A stretch of DNA of 49,788 bases from Escherichia phage LL5. Both the position numbers and the translations under genes were made by a program. This document shows, piece by piece, positions 2,954-42,066 of this stretch (position 1 is the first letter of the stretch; each line of letters starts with the position of its first letter). The DNA is taken from sequence record NC_047985.1; one strand, 5' to 3'. The notes under the pieces were generated by a model. That model saw nothing but the letters and a program-made list of their open reading frames with translations, was not told the origin of the DNA and made no database searches.

Positions 2954-3496
2954 ATGTTTACGATCAACTTGTGGGGAAGGGATTATGTTAATCCCTATGT
3001 TGCAACAAAACAGCGTTTCGTTATTTTCGACCTAGACGGCACATTGTCAAATGGTGAGCACCGCTTGCACCTGTTGCCAACGGTTGATTTGCACCTTACT
3101 GAAAGCTGGAGTGAGTTTAATCGCGCGGCTAAGGATGATTTACCGTTCAGCAATAACATTGCCGTATGCAATGCCATGTTTGATGCAGGATATCTGGTTA
3201 TCATCCTAACAGGTCGCAGTGATGAAGTTGAAGCGGAAACGCGAGAATGGTTGGCTGAAAACGGCGTTTCTTTCGATTGGCTTATTATGCGCCGCACGGA
3301 GGACAACCGGAAAGATACCGTAATCAAAGAGGAAGTTTTACGGACTATAGGACTTGATCGTATTGTGGCGTGTTGGGATGATTCACCAAACGTTATTGCA
3401 CACCTGCGCGGCCTGGGCTTGACGGTTTACCAGGTCATTGACTACGGCGACCAGTTGCACGATCACTTAAAGTCTCACGGAGTTGAGAAGTTATGA
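2954..3496 (+). CDS. HAD-superfamily phosphatase (polynucleotide 3'-phosphatase-like)
   Basis: N-terminal DxDGT motif (FVIFDLDGTL), later ILTGR and C-terminal acidic motif; resembles the phosphatase half of T4-type polynucleotide kinase. Confidence 0.65.
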   Translation: MFTINLWGRDYVNPYVATKQRFVIFDLDGTLSNGEHRLHLLPTVDLHLTESWSEFNRAAKDDLPFSNNIAVCNAMFDAGYLVIILTGRSDEVEAETREWLAENGVSFDWLIMRRTEDNRKDTVIKEEVLRTIGLDRIVACWDDSPNVIAHLRGLGLTVYQVIDYGDQLHDHLKSHGVEKL

Positions 3497-9230: not shown

Positions 9231-10811
9231 GTGAATGCTATGTTGATTTGGGAAGATTTAACAAAACTTGAAAAGCTGGCTATTAAGGAATTAAGCACAC
9301 ACGATTTTGATACTTTCGTTAAAATCTGGTTCCCGATCCAGCAGGGAGAAAAATGGATTCCTAACTGGCATCACCTTTATATTGCAAGGGCAATTGATGA
9401 AATTATTGAAGGTGTGCGCAAAGATACCATTTTTAACGTAACGCCAGGCTCAGGCAAAACCGAATTGCTTTCGATCCACTTTCCGCCTTATTCATATCTA
9501 AAATTGAACAAGGTGCGAAATCTGAATATTTCGTTTGCTGATACACTGGTTAAACGTAACAGCAAGCGTGTGCGAGATCTGGTTAACTCGCGAGAATGGC
9601 AAGAGCTTTACCCAGCAAAAACTGGTACAAGCAAGGATGATGAATTTCAGATCCTTAATGACGCTGGCAAAGTTCGCCTGGAAATGATTAGTAAATCAAT
9701 GGGCGGTCAGATTACTGGTAGTCGTGGCGGTTACATCACGCCTGGCGTTTATTCCGGTTGTGTGACGCTTGATGATCCAGAAAAGCCGGATGATATGTTT
9801 TCGAAGGTGAAGCGTGAGCGCGGTCAAATGATCGCAAAGAACACCATTCGATCACGTCGCGCACATTCAGAAACGCCGATTATCGTTATTCAGCAGCGTC
9901 TACACGCGCAGGATATGACCTGGTTTCTGATGAATGGCGGAATGGGTATTGAATTTGATCAGATATCAATTCCGTCGATGGTTACAGAGGAATACGGGAA
10001 ATCGCTTCCTGATTGGTTACAGCCTCATTTTGAAAAAGATGTGCTTTCGTCTGAATACATCGTTATTGACGGCGTGAAGTATTATTCTTTCTGGCCTAGC
10101 AAGGAAAGCATCCATGATCTTAAAGCGCTACGCGATGCTGATTTGTACACGTTCCTTTCTCAGTATCAGCAAGAGCCAATTGCTCTTGGAGGTAACGCAA
10201 TTAACGTTGGATGGTTCCAGTATTACGGAACCGGAGAAAAATCAACGATGCCAAAACCGGATCGCTTTGATTATACGTTTATTACAGCAGATACCGCTCA
10301 GAAAGAAGGTGAGCTAAACGACTACAGCGTTTTATGTTATTGGGGCATGTTCAAAGGCCGTATATATTTTATTGACGGTGTGCGCGGAAAATGGGAAGCG
10401 CCAATGTTAGAAACGCAGTTTAAAGCGTTTGTTAAACAGTGCTGGAACCGTAACAAAGAATGCGGAAACTTGCGTAAAATTTACGTGGAAGATAAAGCCA
10501 GCGGTACAGGTCTGATCCAGAATTGCCGCAAAGAATTTCCGATAGAAATTACGCCAGTGCAACGCGATAAAGACAAAGTAACGCGCTGCATGGACGCACA
10601 GCCAGTGATCAAGAATGGTTATGTTGTATTGCCTGAATCGCATCACATGCTTGCTGAATTTCTGGCAGAGGCGGCGGCATTCACTTATGATGATAGCCAT
10701 CCTCATGATGATATTATGGATAACCTTTTTGATGCGGTTAATATTGAGCTTAACCTTGCTGATAATGCGGTTGATAGAATGAAGCGTTTAGCTGGATTAG
10801 CGAAGCGTTAA
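9231..10811 (+). CDS. terminase large subunit
   Basis: 526 aa; N-terminal ATPase P-loop-like VTPGSGKTE; C-terminal RNaseH-like nuclease region. Confidence 0.9.
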   Translation: MNAMLIWEDLTKLEKLAIKELSTHDFDTFVKIWFPIQQGEKWIPNWHHLYIARAIDEIIEGVRKDTIFNVTPGSGKTELLSIHFPPYSYLKLNKVRNLNISFADTLVKRNSKRVRDLVNSREWQELYPAKTGTSKDDEFQILNDAGKVRLEMISKSMGGQITGSRGGYITPGVYSGCVTLDDPEKPDDMFSKVKRERGQMIAKNTIRSRRAHSETPIIVIQQRLHAQDMTWFLMNGGMGIEFDQISIPSMVTEEYGKSLPDWLQPHFEKDVLSSEYIVIDGVKYYSFWPSKESIHDLKALRDADLYTFLSQYQQEPIALGGNAINVGWFQYYGTGEKSTMPKPDRFDYTFITADTAQKEGELNDYSVLCYWGMFKGRIYFIDGVRGKWEAPMLETQFKAFVKQCWNRNKECGNLRKIYVEDKASGTGLIQNCRKEFPIEITPVQRDKDKVTRCMDAQPVIKNGYVVLPESHHMLAEFLAEAAAFTYDDSHPHDDIMDNLFDAVNIELNLADNAVDRMKRLAGLAKR

Positions 10812-27900: not shown

Positions 27901-28762
27901 AGCGGAAGCGCGAGCGTCAGCGGATAGGGCGTTATCAACTCAAATTGGTGATACCCAATCAGCGGTTAACCAGAAACTTGATTCATGGGTTAACGGTACA
28001 AGCGTTGGTGCGATGTACGGCGTTAAGTTGGGGATCAGGTATAACGGGCAGGAATATAGCGCAGGTATGGCTCTTTCTCTTGTCGCTGATGGTGGCGGAG
28101 TTAAATCACAATTCCTGTTTGATGCCGGAAGATTTGCGATCATAAACAACCAACAGAGCGGAGCCTTTACATTGCCGTTTGTTGTTGAGAATAATCAGGT
28201 GTTTATCAACAGCTTACTTGTGAAAAATGGCTCTATTGGTAACGCTCAGATTGCGGATCAGATTAACTCTAACAACTGGAGCAGCGGCGCGGCTGGATGG
28301 ATGATTAATAAGAATGGTTATGCTGAATTTAACCAGGTAACGGTAAGGGGTACAGTGTACGCAAACGCCGGATCATTCACTGGTAACGTTTACGCTACTG
28401 ATGGTTGGTTTAGGGGTACTGTTTACGCTGAAAAAATCGAGGGCGACGTTGCAAAGGCTGTTGTTCTTGGGTTTAACGGATCGGTTCACATTCCGGCAGT
28501 AAACTACAACAGACACCTTGTGATTCCTTATGTTGGTTTGCATGGCTATACCTATTCAGGCGGTACGTGGGGCGGTGGTACTGTTTGGGTTGATTCATCA
28601 TATGGCGGTCGCTTGGCTGACGTTCAAGCTACGGCTATGCATGGCGGTTCAAGTGGATACCTTCTGTTGCCAGCGGGTAACGCAACAACGCTTTCATATG
28701 GTGGCAACCTGAATCACGCTAACGCGGTTCCAGTATTAACAATACTGCTATTCAAAGCATAA
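24986..28762 (+). CDS. tail tip / host specificity protein (lambda gpJ-like)
   Basis: 1258 aa following M-L-K-I; conserved N-terminal two-thirds, divergent C-terminus. Confidence 0.9.
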   Translation: MIKNMITGSKGGSSKPHTPVEMEDNLISINRIRILLAVSDGEVDPNFSLKDLYFDDVPVMNQDGSLNFQNVKAEFRPGTQTQDYIQGFTDTASEVTVARDLTAATPYIISVTNKNISAIRIKILMPRGVTQEDNGDLTGVRVEYAVDMAVDGAEYKEVLHDVIEGKTMSGYDRSRRIDLPAFNDRVLLRVRRMTDSTSARVTDLIKMQSYAEVVDAKFRYPLTGLVYVEFDSELFPNDLPNISIKKKWKIINVPSNYDPISRTYSGSWDGTWKKAWSNNPAFVLYDLITNQRYGLDQRELGIAIDKWSIYECAQYCDQMVPDGNGGTEPRYLCDVVIQSQVEAYQLVRDICSIFRGMSFWNGESLSIVIDKPRDASYIFTNDNVVNGEFTYTFASEKSMYTQCNVTFDDEQNMYQQDVEGVFETEAALRFGYNSTSITAIGCTRRSEANRRGRWILKTNVKSTTVNFATGLEGMIPTVGDVIVVSDNFWSSALTLNLSGRVMEVSGLQVFTPFKVDARAGDRILVNKPDGKPVGRTIARVSDDGKTLTLNTTFGFDVQPDTIFAIERTDIAQQRYVVTGITNGDGDEEFTYNITAVEYDPNKYDEIDYGVNIDDRPTSIVQPDILPAPKNVKIESYSRVVQGTSVETMHVSWDKVEYASLYEMQWRKDNGNWNNTPRTANKETEVEGIYAGNYHVRVRSVAANGSASGWSAIVSAGLTGKVGEPERPINLTASDNEVFGIRVKWGMPEGSGDTAYIELHQAPNGSDGHPIVDEATLLTLIPFPQYEYWHSILPAGHVVWYKARAVDKIGNVSDWTDFVRGMASDDTSIITDHIKVDIENSDGYKWLQENAIKANDKIHSTAESVIENALANDKDVRRMRVENGKRKAEFLQSLKLIADETEARVTQVTQMSAQFDEKLTAQNSELREVIANSTETISQRIDQLTATFESEIDGVKQDIKAQITDVNKAITNEAEARASADRALSTQIGDTQSAVNQKLDSWVNGTSVGAMYGVKLGIRYNGQEYSAGMALSLVADGGGVKSQFLFDAGRFAIINNQQSGAFTLPFVVENNQVFINSLLVKNGSIGNAQIADQINSNNWSSGAAGWMINKNGYAEFNQVTVRGTVYANAGSFTGNVYATDGWFRGTVYAEKIEGDVAKAVVLGFNGSVHIPAVNYNRHLVIPYVGLHGYTYSGGTWGGGTVWVDSSYGGRLADVQATAMHGGSSGYLLLPAGNATTLSYGGNLNHANAVPVLTILLFKA

Positions 28763-28884
28763 AAAGGAGGTAAATCAATGCCCTGGCTTAACGGTCGGGG
28801 CATTTTGTTTTCTTTTGTTCCACGATGTTCGCAACCGAATACGGCGTAAAATTGAAAACGTCTTGATAACAAAAAGAACAAATT

Positions 28885-28903
28885 AAATATCTATATAATA
28901 CAT
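28885..28903 (+). repeat. 19-bp AT-rich motif AAATATCTATATAATACAT (second copy at 32-50)
   Basis: identical 19-mer in both large noncoding regions, each followed by similar TAATTATTATTATATAT stretch. Confidence 0.7.
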
Positions 28904-29167
28904 ACACTTAGAGTTTAATTATTATTATATATATCTATTTGTATTATTATTGTTTCTATTGTTCTATATGGTTTGTGGTGGTTGTGTGTTTTGTATTGGT
29001 TGATGGTTATATATCACATGGTATGTATTTATATATGGTATGCGGCGCAAATGCGTGAACAATGGAACACAAAAACAACAATTAGTAAAATCATAAATTT
29101 ACGATGTGATTTTGTTGTCAATGCTAGTTGTAAACGTATGCAAAACAAAAAGAACACTTAAAGGGTA

Positions 29168-29195
29168 TTGACTACATGCAACAAAGACATATAAT
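29168..29195 (+). promoter_or_regulatory. strong sigma70-like promoter for exonuclease-Erf-SSB operon
   Basis: TTGACT-16 nt-TATAAT; about 28 nt upstream of SD/ATG 29224. Confidence 0.6.
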
Positions 29196-29223
29196 GCAGG
29201 CATACCAACGAGGGGATGACAAA

Positions 29224-30279
29224 ATGAGCGATTTTAAAGTTTACACCTTTGACCAGTTAACCAATGATAAATATCACGATCCTAAAGGTTGGGCGGCTGA
29301 ATACGTTAGCGGTTCAAGCCTGGCAGAAATCTTTGCAAGTTGTCCGGCAGCATGGAAATACAGACCACGCGAGGAAAGCAAAGCGCTTGTTTTCGGTACG
29401 CAGTCACATACCAACTTTCAAAGCAGTGAGTTGTTCGCAAAAGAGTACCGCCGAGCGCCAGCGCCGGAAGATTACGAAAACTTAATCACAAGCCAAACGG
29501 CATTAGCCAGCAAGTTAAAATCTTTTGGCCTGACTGGTACAAGCGGGAAAACTTATCCAGACCTGATAAAAATGATGGTTGATTGTGGTGAGGATCTTAA
29601 TGTTCAGTGGCTGATTGAAATGATCGCAGAAAGCGAGGCGCGAGCGGATAACGTTGAATTGGTTCCTGCTAAAGATTACGACGCTTGCGTTACCATGCGC
29701 CGCGTACTGGAAAGCATACCTGAACACAACGCTTGTATGAATAGCCCAACAGCACAACGCGAGCTATCAATTTTCGGCACTATAAAAGGCGTGAAAGTCA
29801 AAGTAAGGCTTGACCATGTTGATATTTGCAAGGATGTGCTTGCAACGGTGATTTCCGGCTATGACGGTGAAGGGAATCCGGTTTATGAAACAACGCGATT
29901 TGATGAAGCGATTGTGATCACTGATTACAAAACAACGTCAAGCGCTAACCCAACGGAGTTTTCACGGCTGGCATTTAATCATGGTTACTACTTGAAAATG
30001 GCATTGCAGCATGACCTATTCAAGAAAGCGTATCCAGAAGAAACGCGCCCCGTAGTAGTCAGATTGCTGGCGCAGGAAAAGAAAGAGCCTTATTTACCTA
30101 TTGCATACCGCATGACGGATGAACAATTGAAGATCGGACGGCTTCAATACATGAGTGTGATAAACCAGTTTGCAGAATGCCAGGAAAATGACGTTTGGCC
30201 TTCATACGCAAACGGAGAGCCTGAAATTGATCTTCAAACGCCTGATTGGGTTCGTCGTCAATACAAAGGTTTTTTATAA
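29224..30279 (+). CDS. PD-(D/E)xK exonuclease (recombination exonuclease, putative)
   Basis: motifs RLDHVD and ITDYKTT; sits upstream of Erf-like annealase. Confidence 0.6.
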   Translation: MSDFKVYTFDQLTNDKYHDPKGWAAEYVSGSSLAEIFASCPAAWKYRPREESKALVFGTQSHTNFQSSELFAKEYRRAPAPEDYENLITSQTALASKLKSFGLTGTSGKTYPDLIKMMVDCGEDLNVQWLIEMIAESEARADNVELVPAKDYDACVTMRRVLESIPEHNACMNSPTAQRELSIFGTIKGVKVKVRLDHVDICKDVLATVISGYDGEGNPVYETTRFDEAIVITDYKTTSSANPTEFSRLAFNHGYYLKMALQHDLFKKAYPEETRPVVVRLLAQEKKEPYLPIAYRMTDEQLKIGRLQYMSVINQFAECQENDVWPSYANGEPEIDLQTPDWVRRQYKGFL

Positions 30280-36175: not shown

Positions 36176-38149
36176 ATGATTCCTAACATTGAAAAGCAGA
36201 TCGCCGATCTCGGAGAAGAAAAGATCAGAGAAATCCAGAAACGATTCACGGTTGGCGATATTGTCCCTTACGAATATCAATGCGTTGCGTATGTTGAGAT
36301 CGCAAAGCGCATAAGCAGATATGAGCACCCATTCTTTGTTAAAGCGGCTGTATCGGCTGGCAAAACAATTACGTTTGCTATGGTTGCGTCACAATGCCGC
36401 AAAATGGCATTAAAGGCTTTATTTCTTGCGCGTCAGTCTGAAATTGTCGATCAGGATTCGAAAGAAATTAGCGCCTTTGGTGTTCCGAATTCCGTTTATT
36501 GCGCTGGCCTGAATACCAAGAGCGCTTATTTCCCGATTGTTGTCGGATCGGAAGGTACTGTAATTGGCGGATTGAATAAGGCGTTAGGTGATTACGTCCC
36601 ACAGGTTTTAGGTATAGATGAATGTCATCAAGTAAACTGGAATGATATTGTTGAAGCCGATGAAAACGGCGAAAGCATAGAGCAGATGATGACGCCGAAA
36701 GGGGAACCAGTAGAAGGGAATCCGTTGCTGATTGGTACAGGCCGCGCACAATACACAATTATTATTTTTGAAATGCGCCGTCGTTGTCGTGAGGTTCACG
36801 GTCATGAATTGCGCATATTTGGAATGACAGGATCGGAATATCGGGGAATTGATCCAATATTGGTTGAAGATAAGCGAATCCCTGGATTTTGGCGCGAACA
36901 GGTAACAAACATTGATACTGATTACCTGGTTAAATTCGGCTCAGTTGTTCCAACTTATTTTGGCAATGTTGGTGATTTGGGTTACGACTTATCAGAATTT
37001 ACGCCAGTGCATGAATTTGGCGTTGCTGATTATGACCAGAAGCAATTAAAGGCCATGAGTGACAAGATTCACCAATCAGGAACCATGACGCAGAAAATAA
37101 TGCAGATGGTTCACGAGGTGATGAAAAACCGCTTGTGCGCTCTTGTTACTTGCGCTGACGAAAGGCACTGCAAAGAGGCAGCGGCGGCGCTTCCGTCTGG
37201 CACGAAATATCACATTATTACCGGAAAAACTGGAGAGAAACAGCGGCGCTTATGGCTTGAGGATGCCTATGAAGGGCGAGTGAAATATATTTTCCAGGTT
37301 CAGGCTCTAACAACTGGCGTTAACGTTCCGCCGTGGGATACCTCTGTTATTTTGCGCAAGATCGGAAGTCTTACGCTATTAACTCAGCTTTTGGGTCGTG
37401 GTATGCGTCAATTAAAGACTTACCACAAAGAAGTTTTGGGAATGCACAAAACAGATCATCTTGTTTTGGACTTTTCCGGCACGATGTTTGAAATGGGTAA
37501 TTTGTATTTCGATCCAATGCTTGAGCAAGCGCAATTCCAGTTGCGTAAATCGCAGGATAAAGATCCGAAATTTTGCCCGATTTGCGGCACGGAAAATTCA
37601 TTCTATGCTCGCCGTTGCATTAATGAAGATGAAAACGGAAATCGTTGTGAGCACTTTTGGACGTTTCAAACGTGTGATGATCAGATTGATGACCGCACAA
37701 AGAAAATAACGGTAAAAGGTTGTGGTGCAAAAAATGACGTTGCGGCGCGTGTATGCCGTTGCTGTAATGTTCAGTTACGCGATCCAAATGATAACTTATC
37801 CGGCAAGATGTACCGTAAAAACGATTGGTGCGACGTGTTAGATTTTAATGTGACGCTGACAAAAAACCAGGCTGGAGTAATATTCTGCTACACGTTGCGT
37901 GATAGTGGCGGCGTAGAATTCAGGGCATACGAAAAATATTTCCCTGAATCAGAACACAAGATATGTAAAACGCTTTGGACAAAGGCGGTTAGAACACACG
38001 TTATAGATCGCCAGGCTGCAAACTTTATGATCACTTGCAGAAATGCAATTAAGATCATGAGTTATACTGGGCAAATATTGCCGCCAAAACGTGTTACCCA
38101 TCGCAAGAACACAAAGAAAGAAGATTTGATCGCACAGAAGGAGTTTTAA
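36176..38149 (+). CDS. SF2 (DEAD/DEAH-box) helicase with C-terminal zinc ribbons
   Basis: motif I AAVSAGKT, motif II DECH, motif VI QLLGRGMR; C-terminal CPICG...C..C and CRCC clusters. Confidence 0.85.
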   Translation: MIPNIEKQIADLGEEKIREIQKRFTVGDIVPYEYQCVAYVEIAKRISRYEHPFFVKAAVSAGKTITFAMVASQCRKMALKALFLARQSEIVDQDSKEISAFGVPNSVYCAGLNTKSAYFPIVVGSEGTVIGGLNKALGDYVPQVLGIDECHQVNWNDIVEADENGESIEQMMTPKGEPVEGNPLLIGTGRAQYTIIIFEMRRRCREVHGHELRIFGMTGSEYRGIDPILVEDKRIPGFWREQVTNIDTDYLVKFGSVVPTYFGNVGDLGYDLSEFTPVHEFGVADYDQKQLKAMSDKIHQSGTMTQKIMQMVHEVMKNRLCALVTCADERHCKEAAAALPSGTKYHIITGKTGEKQRRLWLEDAYEGRVKYIFQVQALTTGVNVPPWDTSVILRKIGSLTLLTQLLGRGMRQLKTYHKEVLGMHKTDHLVLDFSGTMFEMGNLYFDPMLEQAQFQLRKSQDKDPKFCPICGTENSFYARRCINEDENGNRCEHFWTFQTCDDQIDDRTKKITVKGCGAKNDVAARVCRCCNVQLRDPNDNLSGKMYRKNDWCDVLDFNVTLTKNQAGVIFCYTLRDSGGVEFRAYEKYFPESEHKICKTLWTKAVRTHVIDRQAANFMITCRNAIKIMSYTGQILPPKRVTHRKNTKKEDLIAQKEF

Positions 38150-38151
38150 AG

Positions 38152-38559
38152 ATGGTTACTGACAAAGGAGATTATCTGGAGTATTACAACAAATCAGATC
38201 CAGACGATAGGAAGGAGGAAGCGCACCAGGTTGATTCTTATTCATGGCTAACATATGAGTTTCCCATGTGGCTTGTTTGGCACACTAAAAACGAGGGGAA
38301 GAAAACCATAGGCACAGCCGTAAAGGATAAGCAAGCGGGTGTGAAGAAGGGAGTTAGCGACATTCTAATTCTGACTGGTTTTATTGGCTGCAAGTATTCA
38401 TTTATAGCCATTGAGCTTAAACGCGCCAACAAGAAAGGCACGAAGGTAAGCTACGAACAAAAGGAATTCTTGCGACGTGTCAGAGAGTGCGGAGGATTTG
38501 CCGCCGTATGCTATGGAGTAGAGCAAGTAAAATTGGCTATCGCAGACGCTACAAAATAG
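38152..38559 (+). CDS. VRR-NUC domain nuclease
   Basis: GVSDILIL...IAIELKR...YEQKEFL core. Confidence 0.65.
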   Translation: MVTDKGDYLEYYNKSDPDDRKEEAHQVDSYSWLTYEFPMWLVWHTKNEGKKTIGTAVKDKQAGVKKGVSDILILTGFIGCKYSFIAIELKRANKKGTKVSYEQKEFLRRVRECGGFAAVCYGVEQVKLAIADATK

Positions 38560-38910: not shown

Positions 38911-39651
38911 ATGGCTAAAGATATTCAGGACAAAACCACAATTGACACTTTCGCACAGGAAATGTATTTTCATGAACTGCAACACGGCAGATATTCAGAT
39001 ATTGCGTTGCGTTCAGGTGGTCATTATCAGCCAGTTAGAGAAAACCCAATGTTCAAGGTTAGCGGAAACCGTTATGCAGGAAGCAAAACGCCGGACGTTG
39101 TGCGCGATTTGTGGGAAACGCCAGATGAAATTGTTGAATATCTTGCTGGACGTTACGGAAAATATGATCTTGATGCAGCCGCAACGGAAGATAACAAAAA
39201 ATGCGATAAGTTTTACAGCAAAGAAACAAACTGTTTAAAGCGTTGGTGGGGTAGCAATAAGCACGTTTGGTTAAATCCACCATATAGCAATCCAGATCCA
39301 TTTATCAAAAAAGCAATTGAGCAGATGGAACACGGAAATCAGATTGATATTTTGCTTCCCGCTGATAATTCGACGGCATGGTTTAGTGACGCACAAAAAC
39401 ACGCGGCAGAAATTATCTGGATTACTGGTGAAACCTGGAAGGATGAAGAAGGTCGCGAATATTCCAGAACTGGTCGAGTAGCGTTTATTTCTGGCATGAC
39501 AGGTGAGCCAGTTAGCGGAAACAATAAAGGTAGTGTAATTTTTATCATGCGCCAATTGGAAGAAGGTGAGCAACAGCAAACGCACTATGTGAAGATTAGC
39601 GACATTTGCCCTTCCGTAAAAAATAAACGAGCCAAAGCGCGGAGTATTTAA
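38911..39651 (+). CDS. DNA N6-adenine methyltransferase (phage Dam-type)
   Basis: DLDAAAT (motif I-like) and NPPYS (motif IV). Confidence 0.85.
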   Translation: MAKDIQDKTTIDTFAQEMYFHELQHGRYSDIALRSGGHYQPVRENPMFKVSGNRYAGSKTPDVVRDLWETPDEIVEYLAGRYGKYDLDAAATEDNKKCDKFYSKETNCLKRWWGSNKHVWLNPPYSNPDPFIKKAIEQMEHGNQIDILLPADNSTAWFSDAQKHAAEIIWITGETWKDEEGREYSRTGRVAFISGMTGEPVSGNNKGSVIFIMRQLEEGEQQQTHYVKISDICPSVKNKRAKARSI

Positions 39652-39652
39652 A

Positions 39653-39883
39653 ATGAGCATTCGATTAGCCGATCACATGAAATGGGATTTATTTGTCGGT
39701 ATGACAATTCGCTTACTTGATAAGCATGGTTATAACGATGATAAAATGGAGTTGATAAACTGCCTGGATATGACATTTGACGAAATCAAAGTTGCGCCTT
39801 TGTACATGTGGGAAAGAAAAATTGAGCACGACCTGATACAATACAAACGCAGAGAGGGCGCACGATTTTTTAATGTGAAATAG
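39653..39883 (+). CDS. hypothetical protein (76 aa)
   Basis: start adjacent to MTase stop; stop TAG inside box copy 10. Confidence 0.5.
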   Translation: MSIRLADHMKWDLFVGMTIRLLDKHGYNDDKMELINCLDMTFDEIKVAPLYMWERKIEHDLIQYKRREGARFFNVK

Positions 39884-39899
39884 CACTTTTTGTTAAAAC
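39878..39899 (+). promoter_or_regulatory. conserved box copy 10 (AAATAGCACTTTTTGTTAAAAC)
   Basis: followed by CCCGCTACGGCGGG plus TTTT (same hairpin as after copy 12); 74 nt upstream of ATG 39955. Confidence 0.7.
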
Positions 39900-39954
39900 C
39901 CGCTACGGCGGGTTTTGTATTATGTTCTTAACGGAAAACAAGAGGATTTCAAAA

Positions 39955-40119
39955 ATGAAAATCGTAAACGTCGAATACTTCAAAGATGCGCAATGGCTGG
40001 CTAAAGAATCATTATTTATGCTTGATCGCAAAAATCCAAAGGTTATTGCACAAATACTTTGGAATGACGCAATGGAGTTACTTAAAAAGGCTTACGGTTA
40101 TGAAAGTGACAAAAGGTAA
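39955..40119 (+). CDS. hypothetical protein (54 aa)
   Basis: AGAGGA SD; same frame stays open after TAA for 74 more codons. Confidence 0.45.
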   Translation: MKIVNVEYFKDAQWLAKESLFMLDRKNPKVIAQILWNDAMELLKKAYGYESDKR

Positions 40120-40224
40120 AAGGAAACTTGGGAGTTAGCGAAAAAAGGCGGTCTTGATGATGGGATCGCCAAAATAGCGCAATATTTCGATATTAAAGAC
40201 GTGTGCATTATTGTAGGTGATGAA

Positions 40225-40341
40225 ATGGCGTATGTGGATGAAAAGCCGCGACGTGTTCACCGTGTTCCAGCAATACCAACTACAATCGACTATAAAGAAG
40301 TTATTAACAAAACTAAAGAGCAAAAGAAAAGGTTTAAGTGA
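40225..40341 (+). CDS. hypothetical small protein (38 aa)
   Basis: AGGTGA SD; lies in downstream part of the frame opened after TAA at 40117. Confidence 0.3.
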   Translation: MAYVDEKPRRVHRVPAIPTTIDYKEVINKTKEQKKRFK

Positions 40342-40823
40342 TTATGTGGAGCGATATATTTTATTACAAAGATGGTGTTATTTATTGGAAGGTAAGGATG
40401 AACGGAAGAAACGGAGGTGTTAAGCCTGGGGATATTGCAGGATGTAAGAATGAATATGGATACGTTGTGATTGGTTATAATGGAAAGTTGTATTATAGAC
40501 ACTCTATAGTTTGGGAAATGCATAATGGCAAAATTCCAGATGGTTTTATTATAGATCATAAAAATCCTGTTGTTGATGGTCTTGAATCAGATGACAGAAT
40601 AGAAAATCTTAGAATAATAAAACACGCAGATAATTTAAGGAAGGGATCTAATAGGTTAAGATCCAGTAATTCAAGCGGCATAACAGGAGTTTCATATATA
40701 AAACAACATGATTGCTGGAGGGCTGCAATTTGCGTAAATGGTAAAAAGATGCAAAGGAATTTCAAGTCAATTGATGCAGCAATTAATCAGCGTGTTTATT
40801 GGGAATCTATTTATATAAAATGA
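40338..40823 (+). CDS. HNH homing endonuclease with AP2-type DNA-binding domain
   Basis: HNH core HSIVWEMHNGKIPDGFIIDHKNPVVDG...ENLRIIKHADN; AP2-like GITGVSYIKQHDCWRAAICVNGKK; ATG at 40344; AT-rich region. Confidence 0.8.
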   Translation: MIMWSDIFYYKDGVIYWKVRMNGRNGGVKPGDIAGCKNEYGYVVIGYNGKLYYRHSIVWEMHNGKIPDGFIIDHKNPVVDGLESDDRIENLRIIKHADNLRKGSNRLRSSNSSGITGVSYIKQHDCWRAAICVNGKKMQRNFKSIDAAINQRVYWESIYIK

Positions 40824-40906
40824 GATACATTTATGTTATTTTGTTGCCGCCTGTTATCGCTTGGGTTATTATGTACGCTGTTGTTATGAATTAAGAGGAT
40901 GTTAAA

Positions 40907-42022
40907 ATGAGTTTAAAAAAGATTACCGACGAGCAATTGATCGCTGAACGTGAGGCGGGTTTAAAACTGCGTGAGATTGCGGAAAAATACGGAATGAGCT
41001 TGCGCCAGGTTGAGCACCGACACAGTAAATTGGCTAAACGTGGTGAAATATCAACAATCGGATCACCTGGCTTTGCGGTAATTGGTGAATCACAGCTTAA
41101 ACGTGCAAATGGTGAGGTTGTAATGACCTGGACTAAAACGCACAAAGACAAAGCGCAATTAGAGGCAATAATGCAAGCGGCTATGGCTGCATTTTCTGAC
41201 GAATTGCCACGCCTTGAGCCTAAACCGGAAAAGATTACTGACTATTCGAAAACGCTTGCTCTATATCCGATCTTTGATATTCACATTGGCGCAATGGCTC
41301 ATAAGCATGAAAGCGGTGAGAATTACGACACGGCAACGGCGGAAAACGTCATGAATGAGTTTTTCGATTATGCAGTTTATAAAGCGCCGAATAGCGAAAA
41401 GGCTGTATTGCTGATTGGTGGTGATATGATTCACAGTGACGGATTAGAAGCCGTCACACCTGCAAGCGGTCACGTATTGGATCAAGATTCACGTTATGCA
41501 AAACTGGTTTATGTTGCCATTCGTGCCACGCGTCGAGCAGTAAGCCGGATGCTTGAAAAGCATAAAGAAGTTGAGATCCAGATCATTGAGGGTAATCACG
41601 ACCAATCAGGAATGATCTGGCTACGTGCTGCAATGGCGGCGGCGTATGAGAATGAGCCACGCGTAAAGGTTGATGTTTCTCCGCGTGTCGTGCATCACAC
41701 TCAATATGGTAAAACGTTCCTGGCTTATCATCATGGTCACACTGTACGCAAGCCAGAAACGCTTTTAATGATGTGTGCAGCGGATTGGCGGGAAGATTTC
41801 GGAAACTCCAATTCAATGTATGCTCATGTAGGGCATTGGCATCATCAGACTGTGACGGAAACTAGCTTGGGCATTGTTGAGGTTCATAGCACTATGGCGG
41901 CTAAAGATGCTTATGCGGCTCGTGGCGGTTGGCGTTCACGTCGCAGAGCGGCGGTAATTATTTACGATAAGGAATATGGCGAAATAGGAAGATTTATGTT
42001 TTACCCTGAAATGATTGCTTAA
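40907..42022 (+). CDS. calcineurin-like metallophosphoesterase with N-terminal HTH
   Basis: DIHIG, GGDMIHSD, GNHD, HHGH, GHWHH motifs; N-terminal EREAGLKLREIAEKYGMSLRQV. Confidence 0.75.
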   Translation: MSLKKITDEQLIAEREAGLKLREIAEKYGMSLRQVEHRHSKLAKRGEISTIGSPGFAVIGESQLKRANGEVVMTWTKTHKDKAQLEAIMQAAMAAFSDELPRLEPKPEKITDYSKTLALYPIFDIHIGAMAHKHESGENYDTATAENVMNEFFDYAVYKAPNSEKAVLLIGGDMIHSDGLEAVTPASGHVLDQDSRYAKLVYVAIRATRRAVSRMLEKHKEVEIQIIEGNHDQSGMIWLRAAMAAAYENEPRVKVDVSPRVVHHTQYGKTFLAYHHGHTVRKPETLLMMCAADWREDFGNSNSMYAHVGHWHHQTVTETSLGIVEVHSTMAAKDAYAARGGWRSRRRAAVIIYDKEYGEIGRFMFYPEMIA

Positions 42023-42040
42023 TTAAATTATCAAGAAAAA

Positions 42041-42066
42041 GGCTGGCTAAGTGCTGGCCTTTTTTT
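42041..42066 (+). terminator. terminator hairpin (with G.U pairs) plus T7
   Basis: GGCTGGC-TAAGT-GCTGGCC then TTTTTTT. Confidence 0.5.

What the first reader, a model, noticed from the sequence alone, without database searches (positions are those of the whole stretch)
40225..40880. HNH-AP2 homing endonuclease in an AT-rich island
The ORF at 40338-40823 combines an HNH nuclease core with a C-terminal AP2-type DNA-binding domain, the typical build of free-standing phage homing endonucleases. The surrounding sequence is visibly more AT-rich than the flanking methyltransferase and phosphoesterase genes, consistent with a selfish element inserted between modules. A 38-aa ORF (40225-40341) just upstream may be a remnant of the interrupted locus.
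Basis: partly seen in the sequence, partly recalled or inferred. Interest (0 to 1): 0.45.

Follow-up and report, generated by a model that had tools for sequence, protein, structure and literature searches.

The report
Free-standing HNH-AP2 homing endonuclease gene
This is an ordinary, already annotated kind of selfish phage gene: a small DNA-cutting enzyme gene that sits between two genes of a T1-like (Tlsvirus) phage, is missing from most close relatives, and probably copies itself into them during co-infection.

Summary

The gene lies in a 488-nt cassette (40330-40817, GC 0.33, lowest 0.7% of the window). Compared with about 29 related Tlsvirus genomes whose site is empty, the cassette replaces 7 nt. 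The same gene (98.7% aa) is annotated as an HNH (homing) endonuclease in Citrobacter phages SorkZaugg and CF1. Diverged alleles (52-71% aa) occupy the same junction in Warwickvirus and other Drexlerviridae, where close relatives are also empty. HNH similarity does not track flank similarity, which points to horizontal spread.

It is the 3' part of a conserved 80-aa gene (TLS gp64 family). That gene is broken here by a 1-nt homopolymer deletion at 40118-40121, not by the insertion.

Homing activity itself is inferred, not shown. Novelty is low: this is a known gene of a known class.

The parts
40330..40817 (+). Inserted cassette (488 nt). Relative to empty-site alleles it replaces 7 nt (TATTACA), a net gain of 481 nt.
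   Evidence: Alignment of the window with 11 related loci. The last base shared with the empty alleles on the left is 40329, and sequence is shared again from 40818. The 481-nt length difference agrees with the record spans. GC is about 0.33.
40338..40823 (+). HNH-AP2 endonuclease ORF, 161 aa from GTG 40338 or 159 aa from ATG 40344. The stop overlaps the start of the next ORF (ATGA).
   Evidence: GTG 40338 overlaps the stop of the gp64 homologue (GTGA). It is positionally homologous to the ATG start (ATGA overlap) of the alleles in L012, L015 and L017. GenBank annotators of SorkZaugg used the ATG.
40491..40640 (+). HNH (His-Me finger) catalytic core, residues 52-101, including D73, H74, N90 and N99.
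40674..40814 (+). AP2-fold DNA-binding domain, residues about 113-159.
40100..40341 (+). Homologue of TLS gp64 / JK_65P (normally 80 aa). It is frameshifted here by a missing A in the 40118-40121 run. Its last three codons (40330-40338 region, KRFK*) belong to the cassette.
   Evidence: An independent assembly, L018, has the same A4 run.
40820..40894 (+). Conserved, unannotated 24-aa hydrophobic mini-ORF (MRYIYVILLPPVIAWVIMYAVVMN). It forms the right-hand border of the insertion site.
   Evidence: It is kept as an open frame with a similar peptide in Tlsvirus, the PHB07 type, Warwickvirus and L017, despite nucleotide divergence. There is no PHROG match.
40907..42022 (+). Downstream neighbour: a metallophosphoesterase-type DNA repair exonuclease gene.
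   Evidence: PHROG 704 at E 2e-149. The Pfam Metallophos match is weak.
39894..39917 (+). Terminator-like hairpin upstream of the gp63-gp64-HNH-miniORF-exonuclease gene string. A second one lies at 42034-42066, after the exonuclease gene.
   Evidence: The equivalent site is annotated as a terminator in phage Stevie.

Best explanation
The ORF is a free-standing homing endonuclease gene of the HNH-AP2 class. It is carried on a 488-nt AT-rich cassette that sits exactly between the stop codon of the gp64-family gene and the start of a 24-aa mini-ORF, in the early/replication region of a Tlsvirus (Drexlerviridae) phage.

Shown here:
- the two-domain architecture, with intact catalytic residues;
- a presence/absence polymorphism at one precise junction in at least two phage genera;
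- a near-identical cassette lying in diverged flanks;
- endonuclease similarity that does not track flank similarity.

Inferred mechanism: the gene is translated from the gp63-exonuclease transcript, with its start overlapping the upstream stop (GTGA). The AP2 domain and the N-terminal beta-hairpins position the I-HmuI-like HNH active site on the endonuclease-free allele of a co-infecting relative. The likely target is at or near the junction core AAATATTAYAARTGA, which is present in all seven empty alleles examined and absent from this genome. The enzyme nicks or cuts there. Recombinational repair from the endonuclease-carrying genome then copies the cassette in, together with a short stretch of flank (the KRFK* tail of gp64). 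The insertion destroys the site, which would make the carrier immune.
For: Domains and fold:
- HNH_3 matches at E 2.3e-13 and PHROG 99 at E 5.9e-45.
- A family profile hits I-HmuI at E 2.8e-8.
- D73, H74, N90 and N99 are invariant.

Polymorphism at the site:
- Two phages (three records: SorkZaugg, CF1) carry this gene.
- About 29 distinct Tlsvirus phages have an empty site.
- Six phages carry a different HNH-AP2 gene (TLS endY type).
- Three phages carry a decayed fusion.

Junctions and site specificity:
- The junctions are precise.
- Alleles 71%, 62% and 52% identical sit at the same junction in Warwickvirus EC167/mar001J1, a Salmonella-assembly contig and a Logan contig.
- Warwickvirus relatives with 99% identical flanks are empty.

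Horizontal spread:
- Window against SorkZaugg: at most 2 mismatches per 100 nt inside the cassette, against 15 per 100 just upstream and 10-22 per 100 from 41000 onward.
- HNH nucleotide identity is 98.6% against 89.1% for the exonuclease gene.
- L015 has an exonuclease 94.6% identical but an HNH only 62% identical. L012 has an exonuclease 76% identical but an HNH 71% identical.

Co-conversion-like flanks: both the window and the Warwickvirus carrier alleles have the gp64 tail KRFK*, while all empties have KYYK*. The Warwickvirus carrier allele has about 40 nt of foreign gp64 3' end.

Composition: low GC in every lineage, 9-13 points below neighbouring genes.

Putative target: the core is present in 7 of 7 empty alleles and absent from both strands of the window.

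Literature: HNH plus AP2 is a recognised homing endonuclease family (PMC10448857, citing Magnani et al. 2004).
Against: No cleavage, nicking or homing has been measured. The target site is a guess from the shared empty-site sequence, and free-standing endonucleases can cut at a distance from their insertion point.

Tlsvirus genomes are mosaic everywhere. Ordinary homologous recombination could therefore also move a gene between backgrounds.

The AP2 match of this protein alone is below the Pfam cutoff. The Foldseek PDB search gave no significant hit, with all E values above 0.1.

This window's protein carries a unique R-to-M change at residue 23 (WKVRMNG against WKVRRNG in its closest relatives P0001-P0003). 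Its effect is unknown.
Confidence: 0.85

Rival explanations
1. The gene is a relic: a once-mobile endonuclease gene that is now inactive or fixed in this lineage. It would be carried passively and spread only by general recombination.
For: HEGs at this locus do decay. F115, F61 and NBSal001 carry an in-frame gp64::HNH fusion, made by a 310-nt deletion between two GTTCATCGTGTT repeats. The window protein has a unique R23M change. The neighbouring gp64 homologue is frameshifted.
Against: The ORF is full length and all four catalytic residues are conserved. Between the window and SorkZaugg there are 5 synonymous and 2 non-synonymous differences (counted by eye from the alignment), and the cassette is 98.6% identical in flanks that are about 85-89% identical. 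Both observations argue for recent transfer of a functional gene.
Confidence: 0.08
2. The gene is an accessory nuclease with a role for the phage rather than a selfish role. Examples would be degrading host or competitor DNA, processing DNA together with the adjacent exonuclease, or regulating transcription through the AP2 domain. It would be gained and lost like any moron.
For: It lies in the replication/recombination module, next to a DNA repair exonuclease and a VRR-NUC nuclease. AP2 domains are transcription factor domains elsewhere. Homing endonucleases also exclude competitor markers, so the two roles overlap.
Against: The gene is dispensable: most close relatives lack it and nothing replaces it. 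Several diverged alleles keep to exactly one junction in different genera. That is the signature of target-site specificity, not of a generally useful cargo gene. Its composition is foreign to the genome.
Confidence: 0.05
3. The gene is a packaging-associated HNH endonuclease that works with the terminase, as in HK97-like phages.
For: Only the shared HNH motif supports this.
Against: The terminase large subunit gene is at 9231-10811, 29.5 kb away. The gene is absent from most relatives. Its architecture is I-HmuI-like plus AP2, not the short terminase-adjacent HNH type.
Confidence: 0.01

Closest known systems
HNH endonuclease gp37 of Citrobacter phage vB_CfrD_SorkZaugg (UGO53932.1) and the 'HNH homing endonuclease' of Citrobacter phage CF1 DK-2017
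   Same: 98.7% amino-acid identity over the full length, the same insertion junction and the same neighbouring genes.
   Different: Two amino-acid differences. The upstream gp64-family allele is of a different type: the window's resembles those of empty-site phages, while SorkZaugg's resembles that of TLS.
HNH-AP2 homing endonuclease family (Magnani et al. 2004, as cited in PMC10448857; 'IPA-HNH' HEGs of ICP1 in PMC10448857)
   Same: An N-terminal HNH nuclease plus a C-terminal AP2 DNA-binding domain, in a free-standing phage gene next to essential or replication genes.
   Different: The ICP1 IPA-HNH proteins are too divergent for the Pfam HNH_3 profile, whereas this one is a clear HNH_3 member. 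No member close to this protein has been biochemically characterised, as far as the searches here show.
I-HmuI (PDB 1u3e), intron-encoded HNH homing endonuclease of Bacillus phage SPO1
   Different: I-HmuI is encoded in a group I intron, has helical and helix-turn-helix C-terminal DNA-binding modules instead of AP2, and is a nickase. Here there is no intron and the C-terminus is an AP2 fold.
endY of phage TLS, and the HNH genes of FSL SP-126 and GS156
   Same: The same family (35-40% identity, HNH_3 plus AP2-like), the same gap between the gp64 homologue and the exonuclease gene, the same low GC, and also sporadic among relatives.
   Different: These genes are inserted on the other side of the mini-ORF, about 75 nt downstream, directly before the exonuclease gene. 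They come with altered first codons of that gene.
T4 free-standing homing endonucleases (Seg and Mob families)
   Same: Intergenic selfish nuclease genes that spread in co-infection with co-conversion of flanking markers (general knowledge; references 10-11 in PMC10448857).
   Different: The Seg proteins are GIY-YIG enzymes. Their sequences and targets are unrelated to this gene.

Membership tests
HNH / His-Me finger endonucleases (Pfam HNH_3, PF13392) | Profile match above the curated cutoff | tested here: met
   50 bits against a cutoff of 24.8, E 2.3e-13, full-length match to the 46-position model. All 15 of 15 relatives match.
HNH / His-Me finger endonucleases (Pfam HNH_3, PF13392) | Catalytic and metal-binding residues (the D-H ... 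N ... N of I-HmuI: D74, H75, N87, N96) | tested here: met
   D73, H74, N90 and N99 are invariant in the family alignment. They align to the I-HmuI residues in the profile hit.
HNH / His-Me finger endonucleases (Pfam HNH_3, PF13392) | Beta-beta-alpha-metal fold | tested here: met
HNH / His-Me finger endonucleases (Pfam HNH_3, PF13392) | Metal-dependent DNA nicking or cleavage | not testable with these tools
   This needs purified protein and a substrate.
AP2 DNA-binding domain (Pfam PF00847) | Profile match above the curated cutoff | tested here: not met
   This protein scores 19.6 bits against a cutoff of 33.3, E 1.1e-3, covering 30 of 54 model positions. Relatives do better: 9 of 15 reach E <= 0.01, best 1.8e-8.
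AP2 DNA-binding domain (Pfam PF00847) | Three-stranded antiparallel sheet packed on one alpha-helix | tested here: met
Free-standing homing endonuclease gene | Presence/absence polymorphism at one precise site among closely related genomes | tested here: met
   The cassette is present in this window, SorkZaugg and CF1. It is absent, with a clean junction, from about 29 Tlsvirus phages. The same holds in Warwickvirus.
Free-standing homing endonuclease gene | Gene history incongruent with flanks, indicating recent horizontal spread | tested here: met
   The cassette is 98.6% identical in flanks that are 85-89% identical. The ranking of HNH identity across lineages does not follow the ranking of exonuclease identity.
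Free-standing homing endonuclease gene | Co-conversion of flanking sequence with the gene | tested here: inconclusive
   The KRFK* tail of gp64 travels with the cassette in two genera, and about 40 nt of foreign gp64 3' end accompanies it in Warwickvirus. The tracts are short, and L015 and L017 have other tails.
Free-standing homing endonuclease gene | Cleavage of the gene-less allele and biased inheritance in mixed infection | not testable with these tools
   This requires a cleavage assay and phage crosses.
Intron- or intein-encoded homing endonuclease | The ORF is embedded in a group I/II intron or fused in frame inside a host protein | tested here: not met
   There is no intron family in Rfam at E <= 1 in 39500-41500. 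The ORF lies between two complete genes.
Terminase-associated HNH (HK97 gp74 type) | Adjacent to the terminase genes and conserved in relatives | tested here: not met
   The terminase gene is at 9231-10811. The HNH gene is absent from most relatives.

The most novel reading that the evidence does not exclude
The 90-bp gap between the gp64-family gene and the exonuclease gene of Tempevirinae phages may be a contested homing hotspot. On this reading, at least two HNH-AP2 lineages and several diverged alleles compete for opposite sides of a conserved, unannotated 24-aa membrane mini-gene. The 15-nt core AAATATTAYAARTGA would be the recognition site of the window-type enzyme. The locus would then show the whole endonuclease life cycle in sequenced isolates: invasion, replacement, and decay by microhomology deletion. 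That would make it a compact natural model system.
Probability: 0.35. Interest if true: 0.3.

Novelty: already known. Interest (0 to 1): 0.15.

Why it matters
It matters little beyond annotation. It confirms that this window carries a typical selfish endonuclease gene, and it fixes the insertion point to within a few bases. It also corrects the reading of the upstream ORF and flags a probable homopolymer error or pseudogene.

There are practical uses. The cassette and its flanks should be left out of phylogenies of these phages. The empty and occupied alleles give a ready-made substrate pair for anyone who wants to characterise an HNH-AP2 enzyme. None close to this protein appears to have been studied biochemically.

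Tried and rejected
- A sequence search of the single protein against PDB chains gave only chance hits, to activin receptor kinase at E about 0.3. A family profile was needed to reach I-HmuI.
- There are no paralogues of the gene elsewhere in the window (tblastn).
- There is no intron or other RNA family around the gene. The only hit was a sub-threshold rsmX match on the terminator hairpin at 39814-39918, taken as chance.
- There is no notable RNA structure at the translation start (z +1.6).
- The promoter-like hits in the region are no more frequent than in shuffled sequence (10 against 7.3 +/- 2.9), so no promoter is claimed for the cassette.
- Magnani et al. 2004 could not be read. It is cited only through PMC10448857.
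- A literature search for 'Tlsvirus' plus 'HNH' found nothing.
- The mini-ORF has no PHROG family.
- The terminase-helper HNH idea was rejected on the gene's position and dispensability.

Full report
**What is at the coordinates.** The + strand carries an ORF from GTG 40338 (or ATG 40344) to the TGA ending at 40823. Its product matches Pfam HNH_3 over the whole 46-position model (residues 52-101, E 2.3e-13, 50 bits against a cutoff of 24.8). It matches Pfam AP2 weakly (residues 113-142, E 1.1e-3, 19.6 bits against a cutoff of 33.3). The best PHROG is phrog_99, 'HNH endonuclease', at E 5.9e-45. The window is a Tlsvirus-type phage (Drexlerviridae, Tempevirinae). The best megablast matches over 25 kb are Citrobacter, Salmonella and Escherichia Tlsvirus genomes at about 92% identity, and none is identical.

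The local gene order is:
- helicase (36176-38149);
- VRR-NUC nuclease (38152-38559);
- a Cor-like small protein;
- Dam methyltransferase (38911-39651);
- three small conserved genes (39653-39883; 39922-40119; 40100-40341);
- the HNH gene;
- a 24-aa mini-ORF (40820-40894);
- a metallophosphoesterase-type exonuclease (40907-42022);
- holin and lysozyme.

**Protein architecture.** A database search returned only 12 relatives at E <= 1e-5. In the alignment of these with the TLS and GS156 proteins, D73, H74, N90 and N99 are invariant. A profile of that alignment hits the HNH homing endonuclease I-HmuI (PDB 1u3e) at E 2.8e-8. Those four residues pair with I-HmuI D74, H75, N87 and N96. The next hits are plant and apicomplexan AP2 domains at marginal E values, all on the C-terminal 60 residues. 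Nine of the 15 family members hit Pfam AP2 at E <= 0.01, best 1.8e-8.

**Composition.** The ORF has GC 0.333 against a window mean of 0.425 (sd 0.029 for 486-nt windows). Only 0.74% of such windows are as low, and the only other comparable island is an intergenic region at 28671-29370. GC3 is 0.25 against 0.36-0.42 in neighbouring genes. The shift is sharp on the right (exonuclease gene 0.456). It is gradual on the left, where the small genes are at 0.34-0.38. The homologous endonuclease genes in other lineages are likewise 9-13 GC points below their neighbours.

**Endonuclease-free alleles and the insertion point.** A megablast of 39600-41500 found 93 phage records. The top 49 records fall into four states:
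- Two phages (three records: SorkZaugg and CF1) carry this gene, where it is annotated 'HNH endonuclease' or 'HNH homing endonuclease'.
- About 29 distinct Tlsvirus phages match both flanks but are 471-481 nt shorter. They include Stevie, Stevie_ev116, Supreme284, UTK0006, phSE-2, U136B, Sazh and PHB07.
- Six phages carry a different HNH gene in the gap. They include TLS endY, FSL SP-126 and GS156.
- Three phages carry a truncated fusion: F115, F61 and NBSal001.

Aligning 11 of these loci with the window gives the junctions. The empty allele reads ...GAGCAAAAGAAA-TATTACA-AATGAGATACATTT.... In the window, the 7 nt TATTACA are replaced by 40330-40817 (488 nt). The cassette supplies a new tail and stop for the upstream gene (KYYK* becomes KRFK*) and a start that overlaps that stop (GTGA). 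Its own stop overlaps the ATG of the mini-ORF (ATGA), exactly as the gp64 stop does in the empty alleles. Nothing is interrupted. The element sits on a gene boundary and keeps the translational coupling on both sides.

**The same site in other lineages.** The nearest non-identical homologues (71% aa) are in Warwickvirus EC167 and mar001J1. They lie between the JK_65P/gp64 homologue and the exonuclease gene. Many Warwickvirus genomes whose flanks are 98-99% identical to EC167 lack the gene. The empty allele of phage tonnikala reads ...CGCAAATATTATAAATGAGGATAG.... Homologues at 62% and 52% identity, from a Salmonella-assembly contig and a Logan contig, occupy the same junction with the same stop-start overlap. 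All seven empty alleles examined share the 15-nt core AAATATTAYAARTGA at the junction. The window has no copy of it on either strand. I propose this core as the target, or part of it. That is inference only.

**Signs of horizontal movement.**
- Between the window and SorkZaugg the cassette differs at no more than 2 positions per 100 nt. The 130 nt immediately upstream differ at 15 per 100, and the exonuclease gene from 41000 onward differs at 10-22 per 100.
- In that upstream stretch the window matches the empty-site phages Stevie_ev116 and Supreme284, whereas SorkZaugg matches TLS.
- HNH nucleotide identity is 98.6% against 89.1% for the exonuclease gene.
- Across lineages the two do not track each other. 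L015 has an exonuclease 94.6% identical but an HNH 62% identical. L012 has an exonuclease 76% identical but an HNH 71% identical.
- The Warwickvirus carrier allele has about 40 nt of a different gp64 3' end, which resembles the Tlsvirus type (SVIDSSREQRKRFK against EAMAKIREPRKYYK in the empty allele). This looks like a co-conversion tract.
- The caveat is that these genomes are mosaic throughout, so general recombination contributes as well.

**The upstream '38-aa ORF'.** The frame 40123-40341 translates to ETWELAKKGG...KEQKKRFK*. This is the C-terminal 72 residues of the 80-aa TLS gp64 / JK_65P family protein (PHROG 2817, E 6e-14). The first seven codons, from ATG 40100, are in another frame and run into a stop (MKVTKGKRKLGS*). 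The cause is that the window has four A's at 40118-40121 where all 11 relatives have five. The gene is intact in the endonuclease-carrying phage SorkZaugg and in the relatives whose gene was translated. The break is therefore unrelated to the insertion. An independent assembly from SRR9134807 (L018) is identical to the window over 2.4 kb and shares the A4 run. However, it has two other single-A homopolymer deletions (window positions 39618 and 40915), so a sequencing artefact cannot be excluded.

**Alternatives considered.**
- A terminase-helper HNH is excluded. The terminase gene is 29.5 kb away and the HNH gene is dispensable.
- An intron- or intein-borne endonuclease is excluded. There is no intron family nearby and both neighbouring genes are complete.
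- An inactive relic is possible but unlikely, given the intact catalytic residues and the near-identical copies in different backgrounds.
- A useful accessory nuclease cannot be formally excluded. It does not explain why diverged alleles keep to one junction.
- No promoter is claimed for the cassette. It lies between terminator-like hairpins at 39894-39917 and 42034-42066 and is probably expressed with its neighbours.

**Comparison with known systems, and verdict.** The HNH-AP2 combination is a recognised homing endonuclease family in phages, cyanobacteria and protists (PMC10448857, citing Magnani et al. 2004). This very gene is already annotated as such in two GenBank phages. The finding is correct and ordinary: a known gene of a known class. 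I scored it low in interest. The comparative picture is tidy: two endonuclease lineages on either side of a mini-ORF, plus a decayed fusion. It could serve as a small model system, but it does not change what is known.

Noticed in passing
window 40118-40121 (gene 40100-40341): There is a one-base deletion in an A-run: A4 here against A5 in all 11 relatives. It frameshifts the conserved 80-aa gp64/JK_65P-family gene. An independent Logan assembly (L018) has the same A4 run, but it also has other homopolymer indels. The break is therefore either a real pseudogene or a sequencing error.
   Followed up: partly
window 40820-40894: A conserved hydrophobic mini-ORF of 23-27 aa (MRYIYVILLPPVIAWVIMYAVVMN) lies between the gp64/HNH genes and the exonuclease gene. 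It is unannotated in every record inspected. It stays open, with a similar peptide, in Tlsvirus, the PHB07 type, Warwickvirus and a Logan contig. It has no PHROG family, and it is deleted in the F115-type fusion.
   Followed up: partly
L004 (TLS) 2243-2800; L006; L007: A second HNH-AP2 lineage (TLS endY type, 35-40% identical) is inserted on the other side of the mini-ORF, directly before the exonuclease gene. It comes with an altered mini-ORF tail and altered first codons of the exonuclease gene, in tracts of different length in TLS/SP-126 and in GS156.
   Followed up: partly
L008 (Salmonella phage F115) 1998-2483; also F61 and NBSal001: This is a decayed endonuclease gene. A 310-nt deletion between two copies of GTTCATCGTGTT (encoding VHRV in both genes) fuses gp64 residues 1-56 in frame to the C-terminal two thirds of the GS156-type HNH protein. 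The deletion also removes the mini-ORF.
   Followed up: yes
window 28671-29370: This is the only other GC trough as deep as the HNH gene (minimum 0.30). It covers the end of the 1258-aa tail fibre gene and the intergenic region before the exonuclease VIII gene (29176-30279). No ORF with a family match was seen there.
   Followed up: no
L012/L013 2991-4187; L004 2122-2793: The database annotations look over-extended upstream. The Warwickvirus 'DNA repair exonuclease' is started at a GTG inside the mini-ORF, in another frame; the homologous start is the ATG at 3072. TLS endY is started inside gp64.
   Followed up: partly
L018 (logan SRR9134807_8), window positions 39618 and 40915: The Logan assembly of what appears to be the same phage lacks one A at each of two homopolymers. 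This fuses Dam with the next gene and frameshifts the exonuclease gene. These are probably read or assembly errors.
   Followed up: no
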